A stretch of 64,000 bases of DNA from Gammaproteobacteria bacterium (lineage in GTDB: Bacteria > Pseudomonadota > Gammaproteobacteria > PS1 > Pseudothioglobaceae). Below, one piece after another: positions 6,705-42,942 of the stretch; positions within the stretch are counted from its first letter, which is position 1; each line of letters starts with the position of its first letter. The stretch covers positions 719,358-783,357 of the forward strand of contig OZ244244.1 in assembly GCA_965217125.1 (NCBI GenBank), written 5' to 3'. The notes beneath the pieces were generated by a model. The model did not search any database. It saw only the letters and a list, made by a program, of their open reading frames with translations, and was not told where the DNA came from. The translations under genes and the position numbers were made by a program.

Positions 6705-6716
6705 AACACCTGAAAC

Positions 6717-6835
6717 AACAAATAAAATGAAAAATAACAATAAAAGGGCAACGCCGCCATTATTTTAAAAAAAACTTTTTTATTTATAAATAATGCTATA
6801 AAATAAAAATTTATATTAACCACTAATAATTTATT
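6717..6835 (+). repeat. Intergenic family unit, copy 0 (upstream of paralogue A)
   Basis: aacaaataaaatgaaaaataacaataaaaggg..gcc..ttatttt-A(n)-c-T(n)-atttataaataatgNtataaaat-leader. The same unit recurs at 10273-, 14945-, 18055- and 22760-. Confidence 0.85.
6794..6802 (+). promoter_or_regulatory. Putative extended -10 promoter element (TGcTATAAA) for paralogue A
   Basis: A conserved TGnTATAAA/TATAAT lies about 35-45 nt upstream of the ATG in all four family units. No transcript data. Confidence 0.3.
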
Positions 6836-9800
6836 ATGAAAAAAATAATCCTAACACTACTATTAACCCTCTCAGCCTTAATTAATGTTAATGCTGCTAC
6901 AGCTTTTTCCTTAGATATTGATGGCAATGGGACTATTAATGCCTCTAATGATGGATTAGTTATCTTTAAATATTTACTAAACTCTAATGCTAACAATTTA
7001 CATACTACTATTTCTAGTAATGCTGCTGATGACAGAAAAACAACCGCACAGTTGAAGGCTTATTTAGATAGTGCAGGAGGTATTTTAGATATTGATGGCA
7101 ATGGGAGTACTAATGCCTCTAATGATGGCTTGATTATCTTTAAATATTTACTAAACTCTAATGCTAACAATTTACATACTACTATTGCTAGTAATGCAGT
7201 TGGTAGCAAAACAACAACCGTAGATTTGAAGGCTTATTTAGACCAATATATTGGCTCCGTTGTAATTACTACTGGAACTGCTACTGTAACTGGAACTTTT
7301 AAGGAATCTGATCTTGATGCTGGTGCTGAATATACAAACAATGATAATGATGACTTAGATAGCGGAACTTATGTTGATACTTTTATTACAGAATTAGAAG
7401 ATGGAGTTGAAGTTGATATATCTAAAAGAACACTTACTGGAACTATCTACACTGTTACCCGTGATGTTAACACTGGAACTGCTACTGTAACTGCAACATT
7501 CTTTGAGTCTGATGTTGGAGATAAAAACAAGGATACTGATACCTTAGATAATGGAACTTATATTGAGACTTTTACTACAGAATTTATTAATGGAGTTGAA
7601 GATACATCTAAAAGAACACTTACTATAACTACCTACACTGTTACCAGTGATATTAACACTGGAACTGCTACTGAAATTGGAACTTTTAGTGAATCTGACC
7701 CTGCTATTGGAAATCAAAACAATGATAATGATGACTTAGATAGTGGAACTTATGTTAAGATTTTTGCTACAGAATTTATTAATGGAGTTGAAGATACATC
7801 TAAAAGAACACTTACTATAACTACCTACACCGTTACCAGCGATGTTAACACTGGAACTGCTACTGCAACTGGAACTTTTAGTGAATCTGATCTTGAAGCT
7901 GGTGATGAATATACAAACAATGATAATGATGACTTAGATAGTGGAACTTATGTTAGGACTTTTACTACAGAATTTATTAATGGAGTTGAAGATACATCTA
8001 AAAGAATACTTATTGAAACTATCTACACTATTACCAATGATGTTACTCCTGTTGAAAGTGAATTAACTGCTATTTATGCTGCTGATACTCCTCCAACTGC
8101 ATTTATCAGTGGTGGTGCTATCGATACTGTGGCATTAGCAATACCAACTGGTGCTGGAAATGCTCAAAGTAGAGTTGATTTTCTATCATTATTAGATTCA
8201 GGATCAACTGCTACAATACAACAAGTACACTCTGGTGATACTAACAATCCTTCATACATTGTATTTCAACAAAATCAAGGAACTGTTAATGCTCTTGTGA
8301 ATGGAACTTATAGTGATATAGCTACAACAGATTTTAGAGATTGGGCTTTAGAAGTTGTAAAAGCAATTTGGCATTTAGAACACCCTAATTATGCTAGAGC
8401 GAAGCAACTTTCTGAGTTAATAGGCCAACACGGTATTACTGCCGGTCAAGTGAATTATAGTGGTGGCATGCAAATCTGGAATTATACTCAAAACGGAACT
8501 GATTATAATTTTTCATTCGGAACAGCCAGTTCTTTAATTGAAATAACTGATTGGGATACTAAATTTCAGGAATTATTATATACAGTAAATCCTAATTCTC
8601 ACGCAGCAAGAAAAGCTGTTTTAGAATCTTATAATTCTATTGACGGCATTTCTAATCTTGAAGTGAAAACAACTGGAACTATTACTATTACTTATTTAAC
8701 ATGGGATTTGAATGGAACTTTACAACCTAACTATTATTTTAGCGCTACTAATCCAACTATAAATGCACAAGGAGATACTGATGGTGATCTTTCAGCTCTT
8801 TCTACACAACAATTTGAGCAATATAGAGAGAGATTGTATAATAAATTAATTGATCATTTTCCAACTCCTGCTGAAATTAGAGCTATTAGAATAGCTGACA
8901 TTGCAGATTTAGATGATGCTGCTACTGATGTAACAATCACTAATAGTTTCTCCAATACTGTTGGAGATACATTTCAAATAAATGTAGTAGGTGATCCTGT
9001 TTATCAATCTGAATTTTCCACAAATACTTATGAAAATGGAATTTTATTATTTGAAAATTTAGGAGATACCCAATGGATTAATATGAAGCAAGCAATTTCT
9101 GATGAAATTGGTAACATTGATGATGATATTACAGAAAGAAACATAAGAATTGCTGTATTAATTCAAAATGCAAATAATGATGTAACTGTAGATGCTCTAT
9201 ATAATGCTGTTCGTGGTGATCTTTTTGAATTAGATAATGGCACTACAAAAGCACAGATCTATGTTAATGATTATGATCTTCCGCTTGTATCAGGTGGATA
9301 TACAAGGTTAGAAAATTTAGAATCAACAAGTGAGTATAGCGCACTGGACACAGCGATAGCCGCAAAAGCCACTGAATTGCAAAATGAAATCTTTGAAGTA
9401 GCATTTCAAGCTTTTTATGATTTAGATACACTTCCAGCCACACTTCCAAGTGTTATTGATGTTGCTGCTCAAGCAGTAAGCACTAGTGGTTCTAGCGGTC
9501 TTCCCAGAAAGGATTTTATGAAGTTGTTAGGAAAATTTGGAGTTACAATAGTTAATGTAATTGATGTCTCTTCCAATGATAAATCTTATGTTGAATTATC
9601 TAGTAATGTTAATGTTTATGCTCTTGTTAATGGTTTTACTTATCAATTAGATCCAAGTGATTTTAGTGATTGGGTTTTTGAAGTTATGAAAGAAGTTTGG
9701 GATCACGGACATACTACTAATGAGCAAAGAGGTGGAATCATAAATGGTGCTTTTGATACAGATACTCTTGATGTTAAAATATTAACATTTACAGAACCAC

Positions 9801-10237
9801 AATCACTTCATGATTGGTGGGTTCATTTCAATGATATCCTAATACTATCTGGTGGCACATCTGCTGACCCAATGTATAACAATGAATATACTGCAAACAT
9901 TCATGTTGAAAGTATGACTGAAGCAGTTTATCAAAGACTTCTTGTATTTATTCAATACATGGTTGATAATCAAGCAAGATTAAAACTTATTACTGGTTAT
10001 AATGATAGAGAACAAGAAATACAAGATTTAACAACCGAATTTGGTGCTAGTGTTAGCATATCTTTATCTGTTAATAATGAAAATCATTTTACATTTTCAA
10101 AGAATAATGAAAGTAGTCTTCCAGTTCAATCTAATTGGACTCATTCTGTAGGAGTAACTCTTGAACAATTAAGTGCTGATAATTGGGTAAAATTCTATGC
10201 AAAATGTAGAGGTATCCTAATTGGATTAGGTAACTAA
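6836..10237 (+). CDS. Giant secreted mosaic protein, family member A (1133 aa): signal peptide, 2 dockerin/EF-hand-like repeats, 4 tandem repeats of 62-67 aa, shuffled modules
   Basis: 3.4-kb uninterrupted ORF. MKKIILTLLLTLSALINVNA signal peptide, then two copies of LDIDGNG.(I/T)NASNDGL(I/V)IFKYLLNSNANNLHTTI. The N-terminal 140 aa is nearly identical to B, C and D. The C-terminal ~150 aa is shared with D. Confidence 0.9.
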   Translation: MKKIILTLLLTLSALINVNAATAFSLDIDGNGTINASNDGLVIFKYLLNSNANNLHTTISSNAADDRKTTAQLKAYLDSAGGILDIDGNGSTNASNDGLIIFKYLLNSNANNLHTTIASNAVGSKTTTVDLKAYLDQYIGSVVITTGTATVTGTFKESDLDAGAEYTNNDNDDLDSGTYVDTFITELEDGVEVDISKRTLTGTIYTVTRDVNTGTATVTATFFESDVGDKNKDTDTLDNGTYIETFTTEFINGVEDTSKRTLTITTYTVTSDINTGTATEIGTFSESDPAIGNQNNDNDDLDSGTYVKIFATEFINGVEDTSKRTLTITTYTVTSDVNTGTATATGTFSESDLEAGDEYTNNDNDDLDSGTYVRTFTTEFINGVEDTSKRILIETIYTITNDVTPVESELTAIYAADTPPTAFISGGAIDTVALAIPTGAGNAQSRVDFLSLLDSGSTATIQQVHSGDTNNPSYIVFQQNQGTVNALVNGTYSDIATTDFRDWALEVVKAIWHLEHPNYARAKQLSELIGQHGITAGQVNYSGGMQIWNYTQNGTDYNFSFGTASSLIEITDWDTKFQELLYTVNPNSHAARKAVLESYNSIDGISNLEVKTTGTITITYLTWDLNGTLQPNYYFSATNPTINAQGDTDGDLSALSTQQFEQYRERLYNKLIDHFPTPAEIRAIRIADIADLDDAATDVTITNSFSNTVGDTFQINVVGDPVYQSEFSTNTYENGILLFENLGDTQWINMKQAISDEIGNIDDDITERNIRIAVLIQNANNDVTVDALYNAVRGDLFELDNGTTKAQIYVNDYDLPLVSGGYTRLENLESTSEYSALDTAIAAKATELQNEIFEVAFQAFYDLDTLPATLPSVIDVAAQAVSTSGSSGLPRKDFMKLLGKFGVTIVNVIDVSSNDKSYVELSSNVNVYALVNGFTYQLDPSDFSDWVFEVMKEVWDHGHTTNEQRGGIINGAFDTDTLDVKILTFTEPQSLHDWWVHFNDILILSGGTSADPMYNNEYTANIHVESMTEAVYQRLLVFIQYMVDNQARLKLITGYNDREQEIQDLTTEFGASVSISLSVNNENHFTFSKNNESSLPVQSNWTHSVGVTLEQLSADNWVKFYAKCRGILIGLGN
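7271..8046 (+). repeat. Four in-frame tandem repeats (201, 186, 192 and about 192 nt) inside paralogue A
   Basis: Units start with actggaactgctact (TGTAT) at 7271, 7472, 7658 and 7850. Each encodes TGTAT..GTF.ESD......D.D.LD(S/N)GTY...F.TE(F/L).(N/D)GVE..SKRTL...(T/I)YT(V/I)T.D(V/I)N. Confidence 0.9.
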
Positions 10238-10247
10238 ACAATGTTAT

Positions 10248-10265
10248 TCCCGTCTTCGGGCGGGA
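10248..10265 (+). terminator. Hairpin TCCCGTC-TTCG-GGCGGGA followed by TTT (3' of paralogue A)
   Basis: 7-bp stem (one G-U) with a UUCG tetraloop. The identical element follows paralogue D at 22737-22754. Confidence 0.6.
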
Positions 10266-10343
10266 TTTAACTTAAATAAAATGAAAAATAACAATAAAAG
10301 GGCAGTGCCGCTTATTTAAAAAAACTTTTTTATCTATAAATAA

Positions 10344-10352
10344 TGGTATAAA
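10344..10352 (+). promoter_or_regulatory. Putative extended -10 (TGgTATAAA) for paralogue B
   Basis: Conserved position in the family unit, identical to the D copy at 18134-18142. Confidence 0.3.
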
Positions 10353-10385
10353 ATAGAAAGTTATCTTAACTACCACTAACTTATC

Positions 10386-13300
10386 ATGAAAAAAATAATC
10401 CTAACACTACTATTAACCCTCTCAGCCTTAGTTAATGTTAATGCTGTTGCAGCTTTTTCCTTAGATATTGATGGCAACGGGACTATTAACGCCTCTAACG
10501 ATGGCTTGATTATCTTTAAATATTTACTAAACTCTAATGCTAACAATTTACATACTACCATTTCTAGTAATGCAGCTGATGACAGAAAAACAACCGCACA
10601 GTTGAAAGCTTATTTAGATAATTCAGGAGATATTTTAGATGTTGATGGCAACGGGACTACTAATGCCTCTAATGATGGCTTGATTGTCTTTAAATATTTA
10701 CTAAACTCTAATGCTAACAATTTACATACTACTATTGCTAGTAATGCACCTGGTAGCAAAACAACAACCATAAATTTGAAGGCTTATTTAGACCAATATA
10801 CTAACACTGATGTTTCTAACATGTATTCAGGGGATAGACCTACTGAACTTACAGCAGAACAAATTGCTGATGCTAATGGAGCTGGAACTGAGCAGGAACA
10901 TCTAGCTGTATTACAAACTGCGGGATTTTCTAATTATCGAATTTCCTTTGATTACGAAGCTATACAAGTGTGGGTTCTTGATACAGATTTGAGCATAGGA
11001 ACTATTTATGCAAGAATACAACTTCCTAGTGATTTACAACAACTACGCACTTCTTTAGATGATGCTGAATTTCAAGCAATTTTCCTTGAAACTATTCAAG
11101 CAATATGGGATTTAGTAAATCCTATTACTGAAAGGCAAAGTAGATTAAATCAACTTGATGCTTTAGAAACTAAATATAATATACTATCTTCTAGTTTAAC
11201 TGAATCGGGGGAATTTCAAACAACGAATAAATTTGTTACTTATCTTTATCAATTAACTCAAGGAACGGATGAGACTTACCAATTTGGTGAGTTTGATTAT
11301 ATTGAAGATGTAACTGATTGGGATACTAAACTTCAAGAATTAGAGGATCAAGTAAATCCTCCTACTACTGCCACTTATCAAACTGATCTAGCAGCGATAT
11401 TCGCTAATGATACTGCTCCAACGGAGCTTACTCCTTTATTAACTGCTGAAGCTAATAGGGTTGCTAATACAACAAGCTCACAAGATAAGAAAAATCTATT
11501 TGAAAATCTGACAGGAGATGGTGTTACTGTAACTTATGGTTTCGATAGTACTGATGAATTCTTTACTGTATCTTCTAACGGAAATTCTATTTCAAATAAT
11601 GTTATAGCTAATTTTATAGTTACTGTTAATCCAGATGAAGCTGATTTAAGATCAGTATTCTTTAATGTTATATTAGAGAAATGGAATCAATTATATCCTG
11701 CTCCTCTTACAGCAGCTGAAGAGCTTGTTGCTATATTTGCTTTAGGAACTTCTCCAACTGCTTTTGTTGATTATCCTGCATTAGATGCAGAAGCAGATGG
11801 TATTTTACAAGCTGCAAGAGCACAACATATTGTCAATTCATTAACAAATCTTAACGGAGTTACAGTAACTTACACAATTAACACTACTCCTAAATCATTT
11901 AATGTAGCAAAAGCAGGTGAAACTACTATTAATGTTCTTCAAGATTCATCAAGTGGAAGTGCTGTTTCGCTTGATACTCTTTCCGTTTTTAAAGATATTT
12001 ATTTCCAAACTATTCAAGCAAAATGGGATATATTACATCCTGCTGTTACTGAAAGGCAAAGTAGGCTCAATCAACTTGATGCTTTAGGAACTAAATATGA
12101 AGTACTATCTTCTAATTTGTTGGAATCTGGAAATGAACCAGAAGGAACAAGTAAATATGTTGTTTATAGTTATCAATTAATCCACGGTACAACTGAGAGT
12201 TACCAATTTGGTGCCTTCGATTTTATTCAAGATGTAACTGATTGGGATACTAAACTTCAAGCATTAGAGGATCAAATAAAAAGAGAAGATAGATTAAATG
12301 ATTTTGCCGGTTTAGTTGGTCAGTATGGTGTTACTTCGATGTCGGCAAACGATGCTGATTCTAATGGTGAACTTTTTGCAGCTTACATACAAGATGGGGG
12401 TTCTGTAACAGGTTTCTCATTCGGTATATATGCTAATTTTGGTGTAATTCCACAATCAATATTTGATACTAAATTCGATGAACTCGTAGCTAAATTAATA
12501 GCTGATGAAGTAACTGGACCCACTGTTGAAAGTGAGGCTGAAGATTTTTATGCTTCAACTGAACCTCCGACAGGATTTGTTGCTAACAGCCTTATTGATG
12601 CTGAAGCACAATCATTTAGAGATGATCAATCTAGCTCAAGATCAGTGTTTTTAGAAAGACTCTCTTCTTCAACTTATCGTCTCAGTTCAGCGTCTGCTGT
12701 TGATGGGTATGTAACGTATGATATAATTACTTTTACCTCAAATACTGCTATTGAAACAATTTCTGCTGATGTTAGTGGTGCTTTGACTAAACAAGAATTC
12801 AGTGATTTTACTTTTAAGCTTATGTTAGCGGTCTGGCATTTAGAACATCCTAATTATGTTGCACCAACTCCTTTTGAAATTGAGCTTGCGGCTCTTTATG
12901 CTTCTAATACTGCTCCAACAGGATTTGTCAGTGGTGGTGCTATTGAAACTGAAGCATTAGCTTTTCAAAGTCCTTTAGGTTCTGTTATAGAAACTTTCAT
13001 GCAGAAATTAAATTCTGAAAACTATGAAGTATTTTCATTAGGTGCCGTTATACCAGTAAAAGTTACTCTTAAAACTGGTCAATCTATTGATAGTCCTTAC
13101 GATGATATAACTGTAGGAAATCACACTGGAGCACAAATTAGAGATTGGGCTTTAGAAGTTGTAAAAGCAATATATCTTTTAGAAAATCCTCCACTTTCTC
13201 TTGAAGAGGAAATTGCAGCTATGTATGATGCTGCAACACCTCCAACTTCATTTGTTGATACTATTGGTGACGCTGCTATATTAGCTAATCAAAATGCAAC

Positions 13301-14903: not shown

Positions 14904-15061
14904 TTAAATAACGGTTAAACCGGGGTTTGATTCCCCGAGTTTAACTAACAAATAAAATGAAAAATAAGAATAAAATGGTAGCGTTGCCCTTATTTTTAAA
15001 AACTTTTTATTTATAAATAATGGATATAATAGCAGCTTAGATTAATTATTATTAATTTACC
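14904..15061 (+). repeat. Intergenic family unit, copy 2 (B 3' hairpin plus C promoter/leader)
   Basis: aacaaataaaatgaaaaataagaataaaatggtagcgttgcccttattttt-A5-c-T5-atttataaataatggatataat. More diverged than the other copies. Confidence 0.8.
14914..14945 (+). terminator. Long hairpin GTTAAAC-CGGGG-TTTGATT-CCCCG-A-GTTTAAC (3' of paralogue B)
   Basis: 12 paired positions in two helices. The same element, with an imperfect outer arm, follows paralogue C at 18024-18055. Confidence 0.5.
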
Positions 15062-17992
15062 ATGAAAAAAATAATCCTAACACTACTATTAACCCTATCA
15101 ACCTTAGTTAATGTTAATGCTGTTGCAGCTTTTTCCTTAGATATTGATGGCAACGGGACTATTAACGCCTCTAATGATGGCTTGATTATCTTTAAATATT
15201 TACTAAACTCTAATGCTAACAATTTACATACTACTATTTCTAGTAATGCAGCTGATGACAGAAAAACAACCGCACAGTTGAAGGCTTATTTAGATAGTGC
15301 AGGAACTATTTTAGATATTGATGGCAACGGGACTACTAATGCCTCTAATGATGGCTTGATTGTCTTTAAATATTTACTAAACTCTAATGCTAACAATTTA
15401 CATACTACCATTGCTAGTAATGCACCTGGTAGCAAAACAACAACCATAGATTTAAAGACTTATTTAGACCAATATATTAGCACTGATGTTTCTAACATGT
15501 ATTCAGGGGATAGACCTACTGAACTTACAGCAGAACAAATTGCTGATGCTAATGGTGCTGCAAATGATTCTAATGCTCATCTTACTGTTTTACGATATGC
15601 AAACTTTGGAGATTATGTTGTAAATATTCTTAGTGACAAAATCGTAATTAGAGATGAATCAGATAATTATGCAATTGTTTATGAAATCACCTCTTCAGAG
15701 AATAATTTAGCTCAACTTGATGATGCTGAATTTCAAGCACTTTATCTTGAAGTTATTCAAGCAATATGGGATTTAATAAATCCTGTTACTGTTGAAAGTG
15801 AAGTAGCAAAACTATATGCTGCTGAAGATGCTCCAACCTCACTTGGAGATTTTATACAAACTTACTTTGAAAATGAGGAAGTATTTGGAATTCTTGCAGA
15901 TTTCCAAAAATTAGCTAGTGAAAATTATGAAATAACAGGGTATGGTACGACTGTAGTTAACATAAACTTATCCATTGGTTATATTACATTATCTAATGGT
16001 GATGAAGTTCCTTTTCCTGATAAAAATTTTAGCTCACTCAATGGATCAGATCTTGCTGACTGGGCTTTAGCTATTGTACAAGCAATATGGGATTTAGAAA
16101 ATCCTAACGCTGGACCTACTTATCAAGATGACCTGATAGCGATATTCGCTAGTGATACTGCTCCAACGGAGCTTACTCCTTTATTAACTGCTGAAGCTAA
16201 TAGGGTTATTGGTACAGAAACTACAGTAGATAATAAAGAGCTGTTTACTAATCTATCTGGAGATGGTGTTGATGTAACTTATGGAGGAGATGGTAGTGGT
16301 AATGAAATATTCGCTGTATCTTCTTTCATCGATGGAAATTCTATTTCAAATAACATTATAGTTAATCAACTAATTACTTCTTCTCCAAATGAAGCTAATT
16401 TCAGATCAGCATTCTTTGATGCTATATTAGAGAAATGGAATCAACTACATCCTTCTGCTGCTCTTGAAGATGAAATTACAGCTATTTATGAAGCTGATCT
16501 TCCTCCAACTGAACTTACTGATCTTATTAAAGATGCATGTGAAAGTTATGGAAATTGGACTAATAATACACTTCCTGCACTTAATAGGTTTGGAGTTACA
16601 TTTACTAGTTTTGATGGTAGTACTATTGTGTATAATGGAATTGATAATACCAATAATAGTGCTGGTAGTAATACTGCAAGAAGAACTGCAACTTTAGAGA
16701 TTATGACTAAAATATGGCATGTAGGACATCCTAATTATGTGGATCCTACTACTCATGCTGCTAGAGCAGCTGTTTTAACAGCTTACAACTCTATTGATGG
16801 GATTTCTAACATTACTGTAAAACTATCAAATTCAAATAATCTTTCGACTGCTAGTGTTTATTTGACTTGGAAATTGAATGAAGTTGCTCAAGATTTCTGG
16901 TATTTTAGTGCTACTAATCCAACTTCAACCACTGATGGAGAAGTTCGAGGTGATCTTTCATATCTTTCTCCAGAACAGTTTGAGACTTACAGAGAGAGAT
17001 TGTACAATAAATTAACTGATCATATTCAAACTCCTGCTAAATTAAGAGCGGCTAGAATAGTTGAAATCAAAGTTTTAGATGATGCTTCTGATAATGTGAT
17101 AATTACTAATTATATAGATCCTACTGATGGAGATACATTCATAATTGATGTATTAGGCGAACCTAGTCTCCAATCTGAATATTCTACAACTACTTATGAA
17201 AGTGGAGTTCAAGGATTTGGATATTTAGGAACTACTCAATGGGATGCTATGAAGAAAGATATTTCTGATAAGATTGATGAAATTGATATAGCTTTAACAC
17301 CTACTATTACTGATGAACTTGCTGCTTTCTATAGCGGTGAAGCTCCTGATACTATAGCTACAGGTGGTGATGCTTATGGAAATCAACTTCCTCCTGCAAT
17401 TCACACTGCTGCTGTTGCCGCATGGAATACTAATATTCATGATACCATGCTTGCATTCCTTAGAACTCTTTCTCAAGAGGCTACTGGTAATTTTGGTGAT
17501 TCTACTGATCCAGTTACGACTAATGGTATAAGTTATTATGGATCTACTGGATTTGTTGTTGTTAGAAACCTTGATAGAGGACAAGTTAGTGGTACAGTTG
17601 CCCAAGGTGGTGATGGAGGTTATGGTTACCATGATATTGATCTTGGATCCCCTACTCTTTATCTTAATGGTTGGAGTAACTTGAATTTCACACATTTAAG
17701 TGAAACAAACTTTACTACACTTGCTTATCATGTAATGTCTAATTTCTATGATTTACAACAAACAGTTAGGCAAACTAGAATACTTGATCTTTTATCTATA
17801 GATTCTAGATTATACGTTTCTAGAACAGATGATGGTTCAGCAGATTCTGTTAGGCGTGATTCCGGTAGTGGTTATCAAAATATAGGTGTTAACCATTATG
17901 GTAGTACTCAGACAGGTGTAACTACATTTGAAGGATTATCGACCGCACAATATGCTCATTATAGAGCTTATGTAGTAGCACTTCAATTTTAA
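15062..17992 (+). CDS. Giant secreted mosaic protein, family member C (976 aa)
   Basis: 2.9-kb ORF with the same N-terminal cassette. It shares modules with A (HAAR.AVL..YNSIDGISN...YRERLYNKL), B and D (YSGDRPTELTAEQIADANGA; TAPTELTPLLTAEANRV). The C-terminus is unique (...YRAYVVALQF). Confidence 0.9.
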   Translation: MKKIILTLLLTLSTLVNVNAVAAFSLDIDGNGTINASNDGLIIFKYLLNSNANNLHTTISSNAADDRKTTAQLKAYLDSAGTILDIDGNGTTNASNDGLIVFKYLLNSNANNLHTTIASNAPGSKTTTIDLKTYLDQYISTDVSNMYSGDRPTELTAEQIADANGAANDSNAHLTVLRYANFGDYVVNILSDKIVIRDESDNYAIVYEITSSENNLAQLDDAEFQALYLEVIQAIWDLINPVTVESEVAKLYAAEDAPTSLGDFIQTYFENEEVFGILADFQKLASENYEITGYGTTVVNINLSIGYITLSNGDEVPFPDKNFSSLNGSDLADWALAIVQAIWDLENPNAGPTYQDDLIAIFASDTAPTELTPLLTAEANRVIGTETTVDNKELFTNLSGDGVDVTYGGDGSGNEIFAVSSFIDGNSISNNIIVNQLITSSPNEANFRSAFFDAILEKWNQLHPSAALEDEITAIYEADLPPTELTDLIKDACESYGNWTNNTLPALNRFGVTFTSFDGSTIVYNGIDNTNNSAGSNTARRTATLEIMTKIWHVGHPNYVDPTTHAARAAVLTAYNSIDGISNITVKLSNSNNLSTASVYLTWKLNEVAQDFWYFSATNPTSTTDGEVRGDLSYLSPEQFETYRERLYNKLTDHIQTPAKLRAARIVEIKVLDDASDNVIITNYIDPTDGDTFIIDVLGEPSLQSEYSTTTYESGVQGFGYLGTTQWDAMKKDISDKIDEIDIALTPTITDELAAFYSGEAPDTIATGGDAYGNQLPPAIHTAAVAAWNTNIHDTMLAFLRTLSQEATGNFGDSTDPVTTNGISYYGSTGFVVVRNLDRGQVSGTVAQGGDGGYGYHDIDLGSPTLYLNGWSNLNFTHLSETNFTTLAYHVMSNFYDLQQTVRQTRILDLLSIDSRLYVSRTDDGSADSVRRDSGSGYQNIGVNHYGSTQTGVTTFEGLSTAQYAHYRAYVVALQF

Positions 17993-18175
17993 TACATTGT
18001 TGAACTACAATAATTAAGTAACGGTTAAACCGGGGTTTGATTCCCCGAGATTAACTAACAAATAAAACGGAAAATAACAATAAAAGGGCAGTGCCGCCCT
18101 TATTTTAAAAAAAACTTTCTTATCTATAAATAATGGTATAAAATAGAAAGTTATCTTAACTACCACTAACTTATC
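17993..18175 (+). repeat. Intergenic family unit, copy 3 (C 3' hairpin plus D promoter/leader)
   Basis: aacaaataaaacggaaaataacaataaaagggcagtgccgcccttatttt-A8-c-tttctt-atctataaataatggtataaaatagaaagttatcttaactaccactaacttatc. Confidence 0.85.
18024..18055 (+). terminator. Hairpin GTTAAAC-CGGGG-TTTGATT-CCCCG-A-GATTAAC (3' of paralogue C)
   Basis: Copy of the element at 14914-14945 with one mismatch in the outer arm. Confidence 0.45.
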
Positions 18176-21100
18176 ATGAAAAAAATAATCCTAACACTAC
18201 TATTAACCCTCTCAGCCTTAGTTAATGTTAATGCTGTTGCAGCTTTTTCCTTAGATATTGATGGCAATGGGACTATTAACGCCTCTAACGATGGCTTGAT
18301 TATCTTTAAATATTTACTAAACTCTAATGCTAACAATTTACATACTACCATTTCTAGTAATGCAGCTGATGACAGAAAAACAACCGCACAGTTGAAGGCT
18401 TATTTAGATAATTCAGGAGATATTTTAGATATTGATGGCAACGGGACTACTAATGCCTCTAATGATGGCTTGATTGTCTTTAAATATTTACTAAACTCTA
18501 ATGCTAACAATTTACATACTACTATTGCTAGTAATGCACCTGGTAGCAAAACAACAACCATAAATTTGAAGGCTTATTTAGACCAATATATTAGCACTGA
18601 TGTTTCTAACTTGTATTCAGGGGATAGACCTACTGAACTTACAGCAGAACAAATTGCTGATGCTAATGGAGCTGGAACTACTACAGAACATTTAGATGTA
18701 TTAAAAACTGCGGAATTTTCAAATTACGGGGTTTATCTAGATTTATCAGAGAAGCAAATATGGATTGTTGATACAGATGGAAATATAGGAACTGTTTATA
18801 CACGAATAGATCTTGGTGATAATTTCCAACAACTACATTCTTCCTTAAATAATGAAGAATTTCAAGCAATTTATCTTGAAACTATTCAAGCAATATGGGA
18901 TTTAGTAAATCCTGCTGTGGAATCTAGGCTAGATGAACTCAAGTCTATACTTATACAGAATGGCGCTACTTTCGTTGAATTCTTTGAACCTGCTAGTTCT
19001 AGTGCAATGGAGGTGACAATAACATGGGTTAGTAAAGATGGAATTACTGATTCTCACAATTTCGGAGAATTCGATACTCTTGATGATGTAGAGCCTTGGG
19101 CTGATAGACTTCAAGCATTTGAGGATCAAGTAAATCCTCCTACTACTGCCACTTATCAAACTGATCTAGCAGCGATATTTGCTAATGATACTGCTCCAAC
19201 GGAGCTTACTCCTTTATTAACTGCTGAAGCTAATAGAGTTGCTAATATCACAAATTCTTCAATAGCTAAGAGTGAGTTGTTTACTAATCTATCAGGAGAT
19301 GGTGTTACTGTAGTTTATGGAGCAGCAGATGGTAATGAAGTATTCACAGTATCTTCTAACGGAGGTTCTATTTCAAACAATATCATAGCTAATGGAATAA
19401 TTACTATTCCTGCTGTAGATGAAGCTGACGTAAGATCAATATTCTTTGATGTTATATTAGAGAAATGGAATCAACTATATCCTAATGCTGATTTATATTC
19501 AGGGGATAGACCTACTGAACTTACAGCGGAACAAATTGCTGCTGCTAATGGAGCTGTAACTGAGCAGGAACATATAGAGGTATTACAAACTGCGAAATTT
19601 TCTAACTATCGAATTGGATATAGTGCGGGAGAGAGACAAATATGGGTTCTTGATACAGATCTTACGATAGGAACTGTTTATGCAATAATACAACTCCCTA
19701 GTACTTTACAATCATTACGTACTTCTCTAGATCATGCTGAATTTCAAGGATATTTCCTGGAAACTATTCAAGCAATATGGGATTTAATAAATCCTACTAC
19801 TGTTGAAAGTGAAGTAGCAAAACTATATGCTGCTGAAAATGCTCCAACTGAGCTTGGAAGTTTCTTACAAACTTACTTTGAAGCTGAGTCTTTAACTGGA
19901 ATTATTGAAGATTTTGAAAAATTAACTGGTGAGAATTTTACAATAATTGAGTTAGGTTCGAAAGCAGCAACTGGAAACATTTCCATTGGCTATGTTGAAT
20001 TATCTAATAATGATATAATTGATGATCCTAGTGGTACAAACTTTATTGCACTCGATGGACCAAAACTTGCTAACTGGGCTTTAGCTATTGTACAAGCAAT
20101 ATGGGATTTAGAAAATCCTCCAACTCCTGCTGAAATTAAAGCAGCTAATGAATTAAAAATTACTAATCTTGTTGGTTCTTATAGTGTTACTGCTATAACC
20201 ATTTCAGATTCAAATGGTTTATATGCAGATTATGAGCAAACAGGTGTTACTAATTCAGCTGGTGGATCTATAATATCTTTCCACTTTGGGAGCTTTGCTA
20301 ATTTTGGTGTAATAGATCAAGTAACTTATGATACTAAATTCGATGAACTCGTAGCTAAATTGATAGCTGATGAAGTAACTGGACCCACTGTTGAAAGTGA
20401 AATTGCAACTCTTTATGCTGCTGATACTCCTCCAGAGGCTCTTGGTGATCTTATTACTGCTCAAACTGTAACTTTTAATGATTTTACTAATTTACTTGCA
20501 AAATTTAATAAATTTGGAGCTGAATATTCTAGTTTAAGTAATGATACTTTTACATATACTGGAATTGATCCTATATCTCACGCTTCTGGTGATGCAGCTC
20601 AACGAAAAGCTGTATCATTATTGATTGTTACTGCAATATGGCATTTAGGCCATCCTAATTATGTTGCACCAACTCCTTTTGAAATTGAGCTTGCGGCTGT
20701 TTATGATGCACCTAGCCCACCAACTTCGCTTGGAAGTGTTGTTAATGGTGCTGCATTAGCAGTAGAATTTGGTATTGCAGGAATTGCTCCAAGAACTAAT
20801 TTCATTAAATCATTAGCTCATTTTGGTGTTAGTGTAACTTCAGTTCATGATTCTAGTGGTAAACCATCTGAAGCACATTTATCTAATGGTAGTATTATTC
20901 CTAATATTGGAACTAATGATAACATGAATGATATGAGTCCTGCTCAATTTGCAGTTTTCGCTTTTGAAGTTGTTAAAGCATTCTGGCATATAGGAAATCC
21001 TAATTATGTAGACATTAATACTGTTGAAGGTGCACTTATAGCTCTTTATAACGCTGATACTCATCCAACTGAACTTGGAAGTGTTATCAATGATGCTGCT

Positions 21101-22720
21101 GGAGTTGCTTATGATAATCGTAGTGATAACGCAAATGATCCTAGACTAGCATTTATATCTAAACTTAATAAATTCGGTGTTGTATTTGAAGGATTTAATA
21201 ATAGCAATGGTAATCGATATGTTACTTTTGTTGATGATACTATTGATCCAATACAATCTCCTGTTGATGGAATTAATGTTACTACAGCACAATTCCAAGA
21301 ATGGATGTTAAATATTGCTAGAAATATATGGTTATATGGTCATCAAGATTACATATATGAACAAAGAGAAATTGATAGAATAGCTGAAATTTTAGCTATT
21401 GATACTGTTGCTGGCATTTCTATTAATTATGAAGCTCCGACATTTACTATTTCTAATGGTGATAAAGATAATATATCTCAGATAGATATTTCTTATGCTA
21501 TATTGAATGCTTATGATGATACTGATTTTCTTGCTAAGAAAGTTGAAGTACAAACAGCTTACGGTGTTCAATCTACTAATCTTGCTACAAGAACTTCTAG
21601 AAGTAGTGCATTGATAAACGGAAATAAAACTGGTTATGTATCTATTGCTGCTAATTATGATGATAGTAGAGGTGATCTTTTCAATATATCTTATGGAGGC
21701 ACTACACTGCACGAATATGCTGATACGCATTCTGGTGGATACATAAGATTAGAGAATTTAACTAACGATCAATATAGTGCTTTAGATGCTGCAATTACTG
21801 TAAAAGTAGTTGAATTAACTCCTACTGTTGCAAAAGAACTTGCTGCTTGGTTTGCTGATACTGATACTGCTCCGGTAGGATCTGCTCCAGAATGGCTTCC
21901 AACTGCATTGTATGCTAAAGCTAATACACTTAGTAATGGAACTGAAAGATTTGCTCTTATTACAGATGGATTACTTTCAGCTTATGGTGTTACTATAACT
22001 AGAGGAGGTGCAGGTGGAACTGGTGCCACAGTAACAACATTTATATTATCAAAAGGTGATGGATATGATGTTACTTTCGATTGGGGAGCTTATTCTGCTA
22101 ATGGTTTCAATGGTAGCAATGCATCTCCTGAACTATATAGAAATTTAGTATTTGATGTTATTTTAGCTGGATGGAAATTAGTAAATGAGACTAATAACAC
22201 TAAAAGAAGTGATATGTTAGATCAAGATTTAGATATAACTGGTAATGATGTTGAATTAATAACATATGGACAACCAAATTATGATTGGTGGATTTATTTT
22301 AATGTTGATGGACTTCAAATTCCAATATTATCTGGTGGTATAGCTAGTGATCCAATGTATTACAATAAGTACACTGTTAATCCTCATGATACTTACATGA
22401 CGGAAGTAGAATTCCAGAGATTAGTTGTATTTGTTACATTTATGAGAGATAATTTCACAAACTTAAAAGCTATAACTGGTGTACAAAATAGAAGTATTGA
22501 AATACAACAGATGGCTAATGATTTCGGAACTCATGCTACTATATCTGTCCAAAGTGATGGATCACACCATGTTACTTTTGCAAAAAATAACGGTGATACT
22601 CATCTTTATCCAGTTCAATCTAATTGGACTCATGCCGCAGGAACAGGTCTTGAAGACTTAAACCCTGATAGTTGGGTAAAATTCTATGCTAAATGTAGAG
22701 GTATAGCATTAGGAATATAG
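18176..22720 (+). CDS. Giant secreted mosaic protein, family member D (1514 aa)
   Basis: 4.5-kb ORF with the same N-terminal cassette. It has an internal duplication of the YSGDRPTELTAEQIA...IQAIWDL(V/I)NP module (about aa 146-246 and 440-540). The C-terminal domain is shared with A (...SGG.A.DPMY...QSNWTH..G..LE.L..D.WVKFYAKCRGI). Confidence 0.9.
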   Translation: MKKIILTLLLTLSALVNVNAVAAFSLDIDGNGTINASNDGLIIFKYLLNSNANNLHTTISSNAADDRKTTAQLKAYLDNSGDILDIDGNGTTNASNDGLIVFKYLLNSNANNLHTTIASNAPGSKTTTINLKAYLDQYISTDVSNLYSGDRPTELTAEQIADANGAGTTTEHLDVLKTAEFSNYGVYLDLSEKQIWIVDTDGNIGTVYTRIDLGDNFQQLHSSLNNEEFQAIYLETIQAIWDLVNPAVESRLDELKSILIQNGATFVEFFEPASSSAMEVTITWVSKDGITDSHNFGEFDTLDDVEPWADRLQAFEDQVNPPTTATYQTDLAAIFANDTAPTELTPLLTAEANRVANITNSSIAKSELFTNLSGDGVTVVYGAADGNEVFTVSSNGGSISNNIIANGIITIPAVDEADVRSIFFDVILEKWNQLYPNADLYSGDRPTELTAEQIAAANGAVTEQEHIEVLQTAKFSNYRIGYSAGERQIWVLDTDLTIGTVYAIIQLPSTLQSLRTSLDHAEFQGYFLETIQAIWDLINPTTVESEVAKLYAAENAPTELGSFLQTYFEAESLTGIIEDFEKLTGENFTIIELGSKAATGNISIGYVELSNNDIIDDPSGTNFIALDGPKLANWALAIVQAIWDLENPPTPAEIKAANELKITNLVGSYSVTAITISDSNGLYADYEQTGVTNSAGGSIISFHFGSFANFGVIDQVTYDTKFDELVAKLIADEVTGPTVESEIATLYAADTPPEALGDLITAQTVTFNDFTNLLAKFNKFGAEYSSLSNDTFTYTGIDPISHASGDAAQRKAVSLLIVTAIWHLGHPNYVAPTPFEIELAAVYDAPSPPTSLGSVVNGAALAVEFGIAGIAPRTNFIKSLAHFGVSVTSVHDSSGKPSEAHLSNGSIIPNIGTNDNMNDMSPAQFAVFAFEVVKAFWHIGNPNYVDINTVEGALIALYNADTHPTELGSVINDAAGVAYDNRSDNANDPRLAFISKLNKFGVVFEGFNNSNGNRYVTFVDDTIDPIQSPVDGINVTTAQFQEWMLNIARNIWLYGHQDYIYEQREIDRIAEILAIDTVAGISINYEAPTFTISNGDKDNISQIDISYAILNAYDDTDFLAKKVEVQTAYGVQSTNLATRTSRSSALINGNKTGYVSIAANYDDSRGDLFNISYGGTTLHEYADTHSGGYIRLENLTNDQYSALDAAITVKVVELTPTVAKELAAWFADTDTAPVGSAPEWLPTALYAKANTLSNGTERFALITDGLLSAYGVTITRGGAGGTGATVTTFILSKGDGYDVTFDWGAYSANGFNGSNASPELYRNLVFDVILAGWKLVNETNNTKRSDMLDQDLDITGNDVELITYGQPNYDWWIYFNVDGLQIPILSGGIASDPMYYNKYTVNPHDTYMTEVEFQRLVVFVTFMRDNFTNLKAITGVQNRSIEIQQMANDFGTHATISVQSDGSHHVTFAKNNGDTHLYPVQSNWTHAAGTGLEDLNPDSWVKFYAKCRGIALGI

Positions 22721-22820
22721 AATAAACAATGTTATTCCCGTCTTCGGGCGGGATTTAACTTAAATCAAATGGAAAATAAGAATAAAAGGGCAGTGCCACC
22801 TTTATTTTAAAAAAACTTTT
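22721..22820 (+). repeat. Intergenic family unit, copy 4, truncated (no gene follows)
   Basis: UUCG hairpin, then cttaaatcaaatggaaaataagaataaaagggcagtgccacctttatttt-A7-c-tttt. The sequence then switches abruptly into a NERD gene fragment. Confidence 0.8.
22737..22754 (+). terminator. Hairpin TCCCGTC-TTCG-GGCGGGA followed by TTT (3' of paralogue D)
   Basis: Identical to 10248-10265. Confidence 0.6.
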
Positions 22821-23008
22821 ACTCTCTAATATGGCAATTTCAACACAGCTGATAAAAATATGGTCAAATTGTGCCGTAATTCCGCTATGTTCTAAGCGAA
22901 TATCGTGCAAAATAACTGAATTTTCAGAGTTTTTATAATAGGTTTTAATATAGTAAGCATGGTCTTTTTCAGCCTTATACCCATTTTTCAAGTTTTGCAA
23001 TATCCTGT
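22812..23008 (-). pseudogene. Internal fragment (~195 nt) of a NERD-domain gene, frameshifted duplicate of 23966-24161
   Basis: Direct nucleotide alignment with the intact gene downstream (ctaatatggcaatttcaaca...gtaagcatggtctttttcagcc...caagttttgcaatatc). It has a 1-nt indel (cccattttt vs cccatttt) and lacks both gene ends. Confidence 0.85.
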
Positions 23009-23039
23009 ATTAAATTGAGTAACAAAGTAAAGGAGGATA

Positions 23040-23261: not shown

Positions 23262-23363
23262 AACATACTATTTTTATAAATATCTACCAATAGTTAAATT
23301 CTCAGTATTTCATAATTTATTTTTGATTTTGGGTCTTAACTATCTAAGGCCCATCTATTTTAT

Positions 23364-40705: not shown

Positions 40706-40909
40706 ACCAATAACCAACATATCAGCATAGTCAAACAAACACTCAAAAGACAAAAAATTAGCTGATTATACTTCGCTTATTACTCATTGAGGCGATTAAA
40801 AGCAGGGTGGAATGAGTAAAGTTAACTTTGCAACCAGTGCATATTTTTGATATTTAGATGGCTTGGACAGGTTAAAATAAATATATTTTATAATTTAGTT
40901 ATATTTACA

Positions 40910-42937: not shown

Positions 42938-42942
42938 CAATT

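What the first reader, a model, noticed from the sequence alone, without database searches (positions are those of the whole stretch)
6717..22820. Tandem array of four giant secreted mosaic proteins sharing a promoter, signal peptide and double dockerin-like N-terminal cassette
Seen in sequence: four same-strand ORFs lie at 6836-10237, 10386-14903, 15062-17992 and 18176-22720. They encode 1133, 1505, 976 and 1514 aa and occupy about a quarter of the window. Each opens with an almost invariant ~140-aa block. That block is a Sec signal peptide, MKKIILTLLLTLSAL(I/V)NVNA, followed by two copies of LDIDGNG.(I/T)NASNDGL(I/V)(I/V)FKYLLNSNANNLHTTI(S/A)SNA...LK(A/T)YLD. Each gene is preceded by a copy of the same ~115-nt intergenic unit (hairpin, A/T tracts, TGnTATAAA, conserved leader). 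A fifth, truncated unit follows the last gene. Established knowledge: D-x-D/N-x-D/N-G-x-(I/V)-N-x-x-D followed by a hydrophobic helix ending in YLL is the Ca-binding loop-helix of dockerin type I / EF-hand pairs, which usually occur as a duplicated segment exactly as here. Downstream of the cassette the proteins are acidic, rich in T/N/D/S and nearly Cys-free. They are built from reshuffled ~90-110-aa modules that I cannot assign to any named domain. Inference: this is a multigene family of exported, Ca-dependent, possibly scaffold-docked variable surface or secreted proteins. Possible roles are adhesion, host or phage interaction, or antigenic or functional variation. The N-terminal position of the dockerin-like pair in a Gram-negative-type genome is itself unusual.
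Basis: partly seen in the sequence, partly recalled or inferred. Interest (0 to 1): 0.85.

Follow-up and report, generated by a model that had tools for sequence, protein, structure and literature searches.

The report
Strain-variable docked surface-protein gene array
A sulfur-oxidising marine bacterium (SUP05/Thioglobaceae group) carries four tandem genes for giant exported proteins that share a conserved calcium-loop 'docking' tag, while their bodies are reshuffled between co-existing strains and share building blocks with a co-occurring phage.

Summary

The cassette is a divergent member of a large, mostly unannotated double-repeat family of marine Proteobacteria. The window's own copies miss the Pfam Dockerin_1 threshold (13.4 vs 22.9 bits), but 27 of 62 distant relatives match it. 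In this lineage the cassette also sits at the exact C-terminus of cadherin, He_PIG and protease proteins. Its sequence type co-varies genome-wide, which argues for one common binding partner.

The bodies are built from orphan modules. Module A occurs in 41 of 1.84 billion representative proteins and has no Pfam or PDB sequence match and no PDB or viral fold match.

Six strain loci, four from one metagenome, have 96-100% identical flanking proteins. Their array genes differ in module order, in copy number (4-5) and in one case in C-terminal domain type. Array dN/dS is about 0.6-1.0 against 0.02-0.2 in the flanks.

One gene in each of three co-occurring phage contigs shares modules with the array at up to 88% nucleotide identity.

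Function is inferred, not shown: a docked, recombination-diversified surface or secreted protein repertoire. I rate it a new variant of a known kind; interest 0.65.

The parts
6705..6835 (+). Intergenic unit 1: second hairpin (AAGGGCAACGCCGCC), T/A tract, extended -10-like box and conserved leader; it lacks the first hairpin
6836..10237 (+). Gene 1 (W1, 1133 aa): SP - cassette - T x4 - A - B - [about 270 aa incl. D-like] - A - C-terminal domain 'Cw' (about 170 aa)
6836..6895 (+). Sec/SPI-type signal peptide MKKIILTLLLTLSALINVNA (the same in W2-W4 at 10386-10445, 15062-15121 and 18176-18235)
   Evidence: direct reading; no predictor was available
6896..7252 (+). Double dockerin-like cassette of W1 (aa 21-139); the 174-nt tandem duplication is at 6911-7242
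7271..8045 (+). T repeats, 4.0 copies of 192 nt (64 aa), 83% matches; one T module also occurs in a collagen-like phage lipoprotein (L008 3642-5324)
10238..10385 (+). Intergenic unit 2, with the terminator-like hairpin TCCCGTCTTCGGGCGGGA at 10248-10265
10386..14903 (+). Gene 2 (W2, 1505 aa): SP - cassette - A-B-A-A-B-B-A-A-A - D-D - C-terminal domain 'E' (about 305 aa)
10446..10802 (+). Cassette of W2 (duplication at 10461-10792)
10824..11130 (+). First A module of W2; 87% nt identity to the phage contig (L008 9127-9433)
12870..13190 (+). Module A instance used for the structure model (W2 aa 829-935): alpha-alpha-alpha-beta-beta-beta-alpha, pLDDT 81.5, no PDB or BFVD neighbour
13522..14101 (+). 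D region and start of the E domain of W2; 87.8% nt identity over 583 nt to the phage contig (L010 10567-11145)
14904..15061 (+). Intergenic unit 3 (alternative first hairpin CCGGGG..CCCCG)
15062..17992 (+). Gene 3 (W3, 976 aa): SP - cassette - A-A-A-A - [190] - A(with insert) - [77]; cassette at 15122-15478
17993..18175 (+). Intergenic unit 4
18176..22720 (+). Gene 4 (W4, 1514 aa): SP - cassette - A-B-A-A-A-B-A-A-A - D-D - A - Cw; cassette at 18236-18592. It is the most variable position of the array between strains
22721..22815 (+). Truncated fifth intergenic unit (hairpin at 22736-22753, second hairpin, A tract; no -10 box or leader)

Best explanation
The locus is a recombination-diversified array of independently transcribed genes in a SUP05/Thioglobaceae gammaproteobacterium.

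Shown:
- Each gene has its own terminator and promoter unit, a Sec-type signal peptide and a conserved 118-aa duplicated Ca-loop-helix module distantly related to type I dockerins.
- Each gene then has a long acidic body concatenated from a small pool of lineage-restricted modules (A, B, D, T and alternative C-terminal domains).
- Between strains whose neighbouring genes are 96-100% identical, whole modules are replaced, gained or lost. Gene number changes from 4 to 5, and in one strain (L004) the C-terminal domain type of gene 4 is swapped.
- The remaining near-identical tracts accumulate non-synonymous changes at dN/dS of about 0.6, while every ORF stays intact.
- The cassette, leader and promoter are kept nearly invariant.

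Inferred:
1. After Sec export and cleavage behind VNA, the cassette folds around Ca2+. It docks the protein to a common partner at the cell surface, the same partner used by the cadherin, He_PIG and protease proteins that carry the cassette at their C-terminus.
2. The roughly 540-nt conserved 5' block and the repeated modules are the substrates for homologous recombination or gene conversion that shuffles bodies within and between strains.
3. The diversity is kept by frequency-dependent selection from an antagonist or partner that recognises these exposed proteins. The candidates are phage, an animal host or competing strains.
4. One gene in co-occurring phage contigs draws on the same module pool. 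Phage is therefore the most concrete candidate, or at least a vehicle for module exchange.
For: Anatomy.

Cassette and dockerin:
- The top PDB sequence hits of the cassette profile are cellulosomal dockerins, then calmodulins, all sub-significant.
- Dockerin_1 matches 27/62 distant family members, best E 1.9e-6.
- The wider family has 776 hits, mostly C-terminal.

Common-partner argument:
- The cassette sits at the N-terminus in 38 proteins, at the exact C-terminus in 45 and internally in a subtilase. This rules out a strictly terminal secretion signal.
- The cassette is under purifying selection while the bodies are not.
- Cassette type (YLLNS.. vs YLLNP..) is uniform across unrelated carriers within a genome. 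It differs between genomes whose flanks are equally close to the window.

Hypervariability:
- Flanking proteins are 96-100% identical; g2 is 89-95%, g3 75-96% and g4 50-57%.
- Module strings differ between strains.
- Tracts of 98-100% nt identity alternate with blocks of 41-70%.
- Pooled omega is 0.64 in near-identical tracts and 0.87 in replaced blocks, against 0.02-0.2 in the flanks.
- N:S is 36:17 and 49:14 in the array against 27.5:74.5 and 22:76 in the flanks, Fisher p = 2e-6 and 5e-12.

Orphan bodies: no Pfam, NCBIfam or PHROG hit. Only 41 of 1.84e9 representatives have module A. There is no PDB sequence hit and no PDB or BFVD fold hit.

Phage link.

Lineage: RadA is 79-83% identical to Ca. 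Thioglobus, Ca. Ruthia and a vesicomyid symbiont.
Against: - There is no direct evidence of expression, surface location, Ca binding or docking.
- No cohesin-like partner was identified; only 64 kb of the genome could be read.
- The window's own cassettes are below the Dockerin_1 threshold. The acidic ligand sits at loop position 13, not 12. The cassette model was unusable (pLDDT 60).
- Omega of 0.6-0.9 is also what relaxed constraint would give; positive selection at particular sites was not tested.
- Pairwise comparisons between six strains are not independent.
- Genome-wide cassette co-variation could come from gene conversion among cassettes without any partner.
- The phages' exported proteins follow the Bacteroidetes Q-rule, and their replication genes are nearest to Flavobacteriia phages. 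They may therefore not infect this bacterium at all.
Confidence: 0.6

Rival explanations
1. The cassette is not an anchor. It is a Ca-dependent folding, stabilising or outer-membrane-translocation module (for example a conformational signal for type II or another secretion route), and the proteins are released into the medium.
For: All carriers have Sec or lipoprotein leaders and need a second step to cross the outer membrane. The cassette is shared by proteases and adhesin-like proteins. Conformational secretion signals can tolerate different positions. No cohesin was found.
Against: The strict genome-wide co-variation of cassette type among strains of one species is easier to explain by a co-evolving specific partner than by general folding. 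Homology points to dockerins, which are docking modules. A secretion machine that recognises the cassette would itself count as a partner, so this rival overlaps with the best explanation.
Confidence: 0.2
2. The bodies are phage-derived receptor-binding or tail-fibre-like modules domesticated by the bacterium, or host modules captured by the phage. The array acts mainly in phage defence, as displayed decoys or a receptor-masking coat, and phage pressure drives the shuffling.
For: One gene in each of three phage contigs from the same sample carries A, B and E modules with 79-88% nt identity to the array. A T module sits in a phage collagen-like, tail-fibre-like protein. The phage block is itself hypervariable. 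GC is the same in both. Strain-level hypervariability of surface genes is the classic outcome of phage pressure (established knowledge for marine bacteria).
Against: The phage proteins carry signal peptides, which virion proteins do not. All 20 SPI-type leaders obey the Bacteroidetes Q-rule, and the replication genes resemble Flavobacteriia phages, so the host may be a different phylum. There is no PHROG hit for the array proteins and no relative in INPHARED or IMG/VR.
Confidence: 0.3
3. They are S-layer-like coat proteins: several alternative subunits with a conserved anchoring domain and variable exposed parts, as in Campylobacter fetus Sap.
For: The proteins are large, very acidic, Cys-free and T/N/S/A-rich. 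They have a conserved N-terminal anchor-like domain and a variable remainder, in tandem homologues with conserved 5' regions. They vary between strains.
Against: There is no match to any S-layer family or structure. Four or five genes each have their own promoter, unlike the one expressed copy of the Sap system. The same anchor is on proteases and cadherin-like proteins. Lattice formation cannot be tested here.
Confidence: 0.15
4. They are polymorphic toxins or effectors with a conserved trafficking N-terminus and swappable C-terminal toxin domains.
For: The N-terminus is conserved, there are alternative C-terminal domains (Cw, E and a third in W3), and the C-terminal domain is swapped in L004 gene 4. 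Symbiotic relatives of this group are known for toxin-related genes (my recollection, not checked here).
Against: No toxin domain was detected. There are no small immunity ORFs: the 148-183-nt intergenic regions are filled by the terminator and promoter unit. Variation runs along the whole body and is not concentrated at the C-terminus. There are no RHS, YD or RTX repeats in these proteins.
Confidence: 0.05
5. The genes are functionally decaying or neutral repetitive DNA, or the variation is an assembly artefact of repeats.
For: Omega is close to 1 in the replaced blocks. Repeats are prone to misassembly. No expression data exist.
Against: All 21 array genes compared across the six loci (the window plus five fetched loci from two samples) are intact ORFs of 880-1514 codons in a 34% GC genome (chance about 1e-32). 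Omega in orthologous tracts is 0.64, below 1. The promoter, leader and cassette are conserved. Genes 1-3 keep the same length across strains. The contigs are long (0.1-3 Mb).
Confidence: 0.04

Closest known systems
Type I dockerin modules (Pfam PF00404), including dockerin-like modules outside cellulosomes
   Same: Both are a duplicated segment with an EF-hand-like D-x-D-x-N-G loop followed by a hydrophobic helix ending in Y-L-L. Both are appended to many different secreted proteins of one organism, usually at the C-terminus but functional at either end (PMC12484212). Both show sequence types specific to a genome. Distant family members score against Dockerin_1.
   Different: Each repeat here is 58 aa, against about 22-24 aa. 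The extra part is about 35 aa (NSNANNLHTTISSNA..RKTTAQLKAYLD) and includes another helix. The loop is one residue longer. The window's copies are below the Pfam threshold. No cohesin is known. The organism is a Gram-negative chemoautotroph-type lineage with no cellulosome.
Campylobacter fetus sap S-layer gene family
   Same: Both are clustered homologues sharing a conserved 5' region that encodes the N-terminal cell-surface-binding part. The remainders are divergent, and recombination among copies generates surface variation. The proteins are acidic and Cys-free.
   Different: sap has one invertible promoter serving silent cassettes and uses type I secretion without a signal peptide. Here every copy has its own promoter and a Sec leader, and variation was seen between strains, not as switching within a clone.
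Mycoplasma variable lipoprotein families (vlp/vsa/vsp; from my own knowledge)
   Same: Both are multigene arrays with a near-identical promoter, leader and signal peptide, and bodies made of reiterated units that expand and contract. Both have homopolymer tracts in the promoter region.
   Different: The Mycoplasma proteins are small lipoproteins with short repeats and proven phase variation. Here the proteins are 100-165 kDa, built from folded modules of about 70-110 aa, and have a dockerin-like tag. Promoter tracts of A5-A8 vary between copies, but switching is not shown.
Hypervariable cell-surface gene islands of marine bacteria shaped by phage (e.g. Prochlorococcus; from my own knowledge)
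   Same: Variation is at strain level and confined to an island of surface-related genes inside an otherwise near-identical genome, with co-existing variants in one sample.
   Different: Here the variation is by module shuffling inside a paralogous array with a common anchor, and actual sequence modules are shared with phage genes.

Membership tests
Dockerin type I (PF00404) | Scores above the curated Pfam gathering threshold | tested here: not met
   13.4 bits, E 0.092, against a cutoff of 22.9; the match does span both loops (aa 27-106 to profile 3-57). There is no hit at all on the full-length proteins.
Dockerin type I (PF00404) | Homology traceable through intermediate sequences | tested here: met
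   27 of 62 members of the wider cassette family match Dockerin_1 at E<=0.01, best 1.9e-6. P0133, P0179 and P0194 carry precomputed PF00404 hits.
Dockerin type I (PF00404) | Tandem duplication of a Ca-loop plus helix segment | tested here: met
   A 174-nt x1.9 tandem repeat is present in all four genes; the halves are 41/52 identical; D7, D9, N11, D19, G20 and D65, D67, D77, G78 are invariant.
Dockerin type I (PF00404) | Canonical 12-residue loop with ligands at positions 1, 3, 5, 9 and 12, and segments of about 22 residues | tested here: not met
   D1, D3, N5, G6 and N/D9 are present, but the acidic residue is at position 13; HMMER needs a one-residue gap against dockerins. The repeat unit is 58 aa.
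Dockerin type I (PF00404) | Dockerin fold with two bound Ca2+ | tested here: inconclusive
   The AlphaFold2 model has mean pLDDT 60 with the loop-helix regions below 50.
Dockerin type I (PF00404) | A cognate cohesin (or other partner) encoded in the same genome | not testable with these tools
   Only the 64-kb window and short loci could be read. Indirect support comes from the genome-wide co-variation of cassette type.
EF-hand (PF00036 and relatives) | Profile match | tested here: not met
   EF-hand_1 has E=1, 9.5 bits. Calmodulins appear only at E 0.2-0.6 with the cassette profile.
Sec/SPI-exported protein | n-h-c signal peptide with small residues at -3 and -1 | tested here: met
   Read directly from the sequence: MKK / IILTLLLTLSAL(I/V) / NVNA, then (A/V). 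No dedicated predictor was available.
Variable surface-protein multigene family (contingency locus) | Paralogues with a conserved 5' end and a variable remainder; variation between close strains far above the genomic background | tested here: met
Variable surface-protein multigene family (contingency locus) | Switching of expression or sequence within a clonal lineage; surface exposure | not testable with these tools
   This needs reads, transcriptomes or cells. Promoter homopolymers differ between copies and strains, which is only suggestive.
Polymorphic toxin system | Recognisable C-terminal toxin domain followed by an immunity gene | tested here: not met
   There is no Pfam, NCBIfam or PDB match for the C-terminal domains. 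There are no ORFs in the 148-183-nt intergenic regions.
RTX / type I secreted adhesins | GGxGxD nonapeptide repeats and a C-terminal secretion signal, with no signal peptide | tested here: not met
   There is no such Pfam hit, and the proteins have N-terminal Sec leaders.
Phage tail fibre / receptor-binding proteins | Match to phage structural families | tested here: not met
   There is no PHROG hit for W1-W4, no BFVD fold match and no tblastn hit in 50,697 phage records for the phage-borne homologue. Only the neighbouring phage lipoprotein with one T module hits tail-fibre families, through its collagen-like part.

The most novel reading that the evidence does not exclude
The bacterial array and the phage gene draw on one module pool because the modules recognise each other or a common ligand. 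The phage, or a phage-encoded exported protein, would use host-like modules to bind, mimic or mask the dockerin-tethered coat. That arms race would drive module shuffling on both sides. It may involve DNA exchange across phyla, between a Bacteroidota-type phage and a Thioglobaceae chromosome. Strain-specific cassette types would then define separate docking-compatibility groups inside one species.
Probability: 0.15. Interest if true: 0.85.

Novelty: new variant of a known kind. Interest (0 to 1): 0.65.

Why it matters
SUP05/Thioglobaceae bacteria are major marine sulfur oxidisers, both free-living and as symbionts. How many strains manage to co-exist in one place is an open question.

This locus is a concrete, strongly diversifying cell-envelope candidate that differs between strains co-occurring in a single sample. 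It could therefore serve as a marker and as a mechanistic handle for strain sorting by host, phage or competitors.

The locus also exposes two unannotated protein families. The first is a widespread 58-aa x2 dockerin-like terminal module of Gram-negative marine bacteria, probably a general surface-tethering tag. The second is a set of orphan modules with a confidently predicted fold that has no known neighbour.

The sharing of modules with a phage at 80-88% nucleotide identity makes phage-host or cross-phylum exchange directly testable.

Tried and rejected
- Pfam, NCBIfam and PHROGs on the full proteins found nothing.
- The AlphaFold model of the cassette from a shallow alignment was unusable (pLDDT 60).
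- Foldseek of the module A model against PDB and BFVD gave no hit (best E 0.44 and 0.09, TM <= 0.39).
- Sequence searches against PDB for module A, the T repeats, the C-terminal half of W3 and both C-terminal domains found nothing.
- The exact-sequence look-ups for P0001 and P0015 were not on record, and the sources give no names.
- The genome-contig scan found the cassette only in OZ244239.1, labelled 'Bdellovibrionales'. I first took that as the lineage and rejected it after RadA placed the window in Thioglobaceae.
- The viral-contig scan failed with the alignment and found nothing with single proteins. INPHARED has no module-A homologue.
- Literature searches for dockerin in SUP05/Thioglobaceae and for hypervariable surface proteins of these symbionts found nothing relevant.
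- Whole-gene dN/dS was misleading because of mosaic replacement, so I recomputed it separately for near-identical tracts and replaced blocks.
- A diversity-generating retroelement and an invertible promoter were considered. No reverse transcriptase or invertase lies in or next to the array, and the variation is in module-sized blocks.
- The sigma-70 consensus scan is uninformative in this AT-rich DNA (86 sites found against 90 expected).
Full report
**1. Observation**

At 34% GC a random frame of 976 codons stays open with probability of about 1e-32.

- The first 140 residues are 125-137/140 identical between the paralogues.
- At the DNA level the conserved block runs from about -100 to +410 relative to the ATG, then identity collapses to 33-72%.
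- Inside the block, Tandem Repeats Finder reports a 174-nt (58-aa) unit in 1.9 copies at 88-89% identity in all four genes. It also reports a 4 x 192-nt repeat (the T modules) in gene 1.

The intergenic units align well. Each contains:
- a GC-rich terminator-like hairpin in one of two alternative sequences, both of which fold;
- a second hairpin, AAGGGCAGTGCCGCCCTT, followed by T and A tracts;
- a TGGTATAAAAT box;
- a conserved leader.

A truncated fifth unit follows gene 4.

**2. Organism and context**

The window is ordinary chromosome. It carries pheT, tRNA-Pro, a Spondin_N lipoprotein, the array, glyA, nrdR, radA, a TonB-dependent receptor, serC, serA and aroA, and then a defence island.

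RadA is 79-83% identical to proteins named Ca. Thioglobus, Ca. Ruthia, a vesicomyid-clam symbiont and Ca. Pseudothioglobus. The organism is therefore a SUP05/Thioglobaceae gammaproteobacterium with a Gram-negative envelope.

The only species-representative genome that carries the cassette is labelled 'Bdellovibrionales'. It has a different GC content (39-41%), and I do not rely on that label.

**3. The cassette**

The full proteins hit nothing in Pfam or NCBIfam.

- The isolated cassette gives Dockerin_1 at 13.4 bits (cutoff 22.9), spanning both loops, and EF-hand_1 at E=1.
- A profile of 26 cassettes places cellulosomal dockerins (4uyq, 4uyp, 1ohz, 2ccl) first among PDB sequences, followed by calmodulins. 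All are at E 0.08-0.6 and cover only the loop and the start of the helix, with a one-residue gap.
- The same profile finds 776 proteins in the large database. They come from marine Gamma-, Beta- and Alphaproteobacteria and share the consensus LDIDGNG..DALTDGLLILRYLFG...ATRTT..EIE.YI, twice, usually within a few residues of the C-terminus.
- Dockerin_1 recognises 27 of 62 of these at E<=0.01. No NCBIfam model covers them.

The cassette is therefore a divergent member of a widespread, essentially unannotated, extended dockerin-like family. The window's copies alone would fail a membership test. My structure model of the cassette was too poor to use.

**4. The cassette is a general tag in this lineage**

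Among the proteins sharing it, 38 have it right after the signal peptide (the array family). Another 45 have it at the exact C-terminus, with one residue of tail, on bodies containing cadherin, matrixin, He_PIG, I-set or other domains. One subtilase has it internally. At least ten proteins per genome carry it.

Two sequence types exist, YLLNSNANN and YLLNP(N/D)(A/S)NN with SLSSS. In each genome all cassettes, on array and non-array proteins alike, are of one type.

One NP-type strain (L006) has flanking genes as close to the window as the NS-type strains (dS 0.056-0.083 for L006 against 0.046-0.085 for L003 and L004). Within array genes the cassette evolves at dN/dS of about 0-0.3 while the bodies do not.

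Position independence, constraint and genome-wide concerted change are what a module binding one common partner would show. They are also how species-specific dockerins behave. This is inference; no partner was seen.

**5. The bodies**

Iterative HMM searches resolve the modules: A (107 aa, 163 instances in 37 proteins), B (72 aa), D (103 aa), T (about 64 aa) and alternative C-terminal domains Cw (170 aa) and E (305 aa).

| Gene | Architecture after the signal peptide |
|---|---|
| W1 | cas-T4-A-B-..-A-Cw |
| W2 | cas-A-B-A-A-B-B-A-A-A-D-D-E |
| W3 | cas-A-A-A-A-..-A-.. |
| W4 | cas-A-B-A-A-A-B-A-A-A-D-D-A-Cw |

- An exhaustive profile search of 1.84 billion representatives finds module A in only 41 proteins.
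- With 30 diverse instances, AlphaFold2 gives a confident alpha3-beta3-alpha model (pLDDT 81.5, pTM 0.75).
- That model has no neighbour in the PDB (best E 0.44) or in BFVD (best E 0.09).
- The other parts also have no PDB sequence relatives.

**6. Strain comparison**

Five further loci were recovered, four of them from one metagenome at 6x, 19x, 20x and 39x coverage. All lie in the same chromosomal position.

- Flanking proteins are 96-100% identical. Gene 2 is 89-95%, gene 3 75-96% and gene 4 50-57% identical, with hundreds of gap columns.
- Module strings differ between strains. Gene 4 has at least four architectures, one with its C-terminal domain switched from Cw to E. Gene 2 lacks a B module in one strain. 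Gene 3 has a B module where the others have an A in another strain. One strain has five genes with a different set at the first positions.
- Along the genes, tracts at 98-100% nt identity alternate with module-sized blocks at 41-70%. This is replacement by recombination, not uniform divergence.
- Split accordingly, the near-identical tracts have dN 0.010, dS 0.016 and omega 0.64. The replaced blocks have dN 0.54, dS 0.62 and omega 0.87. The flanks have dS 0.01-0.085 and omega 0.0-0.21.
- For single strain pairs, N:S is 36:17 and 49:14 in the array against 27.5:74.5 and 22:76 in the flanks (p = 2e-6 and 5e-12).
- All 21 array genes compared are intact.

The bodies are thus weakly constrained or diversifying, and they are kept open. 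I cannot separate relaxed from positive selection with these data.

**7. Phage link**

Cassette-less module-A proteins turned out to lie on three related contigs of 41-46 kb from the same sample.

- They share a phage backbone: a sigma-like gene, an Erf-like annealing protein, a DUF3799 (PF12684) protein, primase/helicase, ThyA and RNR (Pfam hits on record; the sigma-like gene, Erf and primase/helicase confirmed by PHROGs).
- The primase/helicase is 30-37% identical to those of Cellulophaga, Tenacibaculum, Riemerella and Flavobacterium phages.
- Between the sigma-like gene and Erf, each contig has a different block of exported proteins. The last and largest (947, 736 or 833 aa) is made of A, B and E modules.
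- These genes share up to 88.2% nt identity over 583 nt and 85.5% over 834 nt with the bacterial array genes. Window segments 13522-14101 and 10824-11130 are among the matches.
- A neighbouring collagen-like lipoprotein hits tail-fibre PHROGs and contains one T module.
- GC matches the window (34.1% vs 34.3%).
- However, all 20 SPI-type leaders in the phage blocks have Gln at +1, against 0 of 11 Thioglobaceae cassette proteins. This is the Bacteroidetes Q-rule (PMC5837995).

The host of these phages is unresolved. Either they infect the Thioglobaceae, or modules have moved between phyla.

**8. Comparison with what is known**

The tag works like a dockerin and is homologous to dockerins through intermediates, but it is a distinct extended subfamily. 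The gene organisation resembles variable surface-protein families such as C. fetus sap and Mycoplasma vlp. The population pattern resembles the phage-shaped hypervariable surface islands of marine bacteria. Those three comparisons rest on my own knowledge.

New here are the orphan modules, the use of a dockerin-like tag as the constant part of a hypervariable array in a Gram-negative chemoautotroph lineage, strain-specific cassette types, and the module pool shared with a phage.

I found no paper describing any of this. Dockerins are known to work at either terminus (PMC12484212), so the N-terminal position is not in itself remarkable.

**9. Verdict**

The feature is real and its anatomy is well resolved. 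Function rests on inference. It is a new variant of a known kind, with moderate to high interest.

Noticed in passing
L008 1893-11883; L009 1851-12211; L010 7479-18829 (phage contigs from sample ERZ25071281): Three related phage contigs each hold a different 10-kb block made only of exported proteins (SPI or lipoprotein leaders). All 20 SPI-type leaders are followed by Gln, and most by a Q(T/S)F(D/N/E)F.C motif. Such a large, hypervariable 'secretome' block in a phage is unusual and unexplained.
   Followed up: partly
window 36948-56170: This is a defence-island-like stretch. It holds a TrlF-family AAA ATPase (36948-39581), a Schlafen/AlbA_2 + HATPase_c_4 protein (39560-40705), a DNA methyltransferase (40847-42937), an 844-aa protein with a weak restriction-enzyme hit, a 1169-aa DEAD/Helicase_C protein followed by an MZB-domain protein (49706-55031), and RhuM (55151-56170). 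The region has lower GC (0.28-0.32) and a strong purine bias on the + strand (AT skew +0.10 to +0.18).
   Followed up: no
window 22816-24266; L003 14407-15179; L005 14163-15674; L006 14181-17843: The junction downstream of the array also varies between strains. The window and L005 have a 300-aa NERD + Zn-ribbon nuclease-like gene (23364-24266, - strand). L003, L004 and L007 have a HicB-like antitoxin gene instead. L006 has extra genes, including a radical SAM protein. A small conserved ORF lies at window 23040-23261 (73 aa as read here; the corresponding gene is called as 59 aa in the relatives and 73 aa in L007).
   Followed up: partly
window 6750-6800, 10300-10350, 14985-15030, 18095-18140 and the same places in L003-L007: The A and T homopolymer tracts just upstream of the -10-like box differ in length between paralogues and between strains for the same gene (A5 to A8, T5 to T6; for example gene 3 is A5/T5 in the window and A7/T6 in L003-L005). 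This could change promoter spacing, as in phase-variable promoters, but the tracts are short and no switching is shown.
   Followed up: partly
window 5901-6704: The gene immediately upstream of the array encodes a lipoprotein with a GD(T/S/N)(S/A)GD repeat linker and a Spondin_N domain (E 4e-45). This domain is best known from animal extracellular matrix proteins. The gene is conserved in the same position in L007 (dS 0.011).
   Followed up: no
window 24907-25434 (- strand): A 175-aa exported DUF7486 protein with a repetitive 'H..VKA(V/F)D..G' pattern is 100% identical in three strains, in sharp contrast to the neighbouring array. It gives a marginal hit to the cassette HMM (E 2.6e-4), probably spurious.
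   Followed up: no
L001, L002 (OZ244239.1, 2.17 Mb): This is the only species-representative genome with the cassette, and it is labelled 'Bdellovibrionales bacterium'. Its cassette proteins (a matrixin and a subtilase) look similar to those of the Thioglobaceae genomes; by eye the N-termini of P0072 and P0045 are roughly 70% identical over about 80 aa. Its GC is 39-41%. The label may be wrong, or the tag may have moved between lineages.
   Followed up: no
sample ERZ25071281: contigs ctg49615_39x, ctg49558_20x, ctg49390_19x, ctg49090_6x: At least four strain variants of one Thioglobaceae species co-exist in a single long-read metagenome at different coverage. The near-identical tracts of the array have lower dS (0.016) than the flanking genes (mostly 0.05-0.08), which suggests recent exchange of array segments between strains.
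   Followed up: partly
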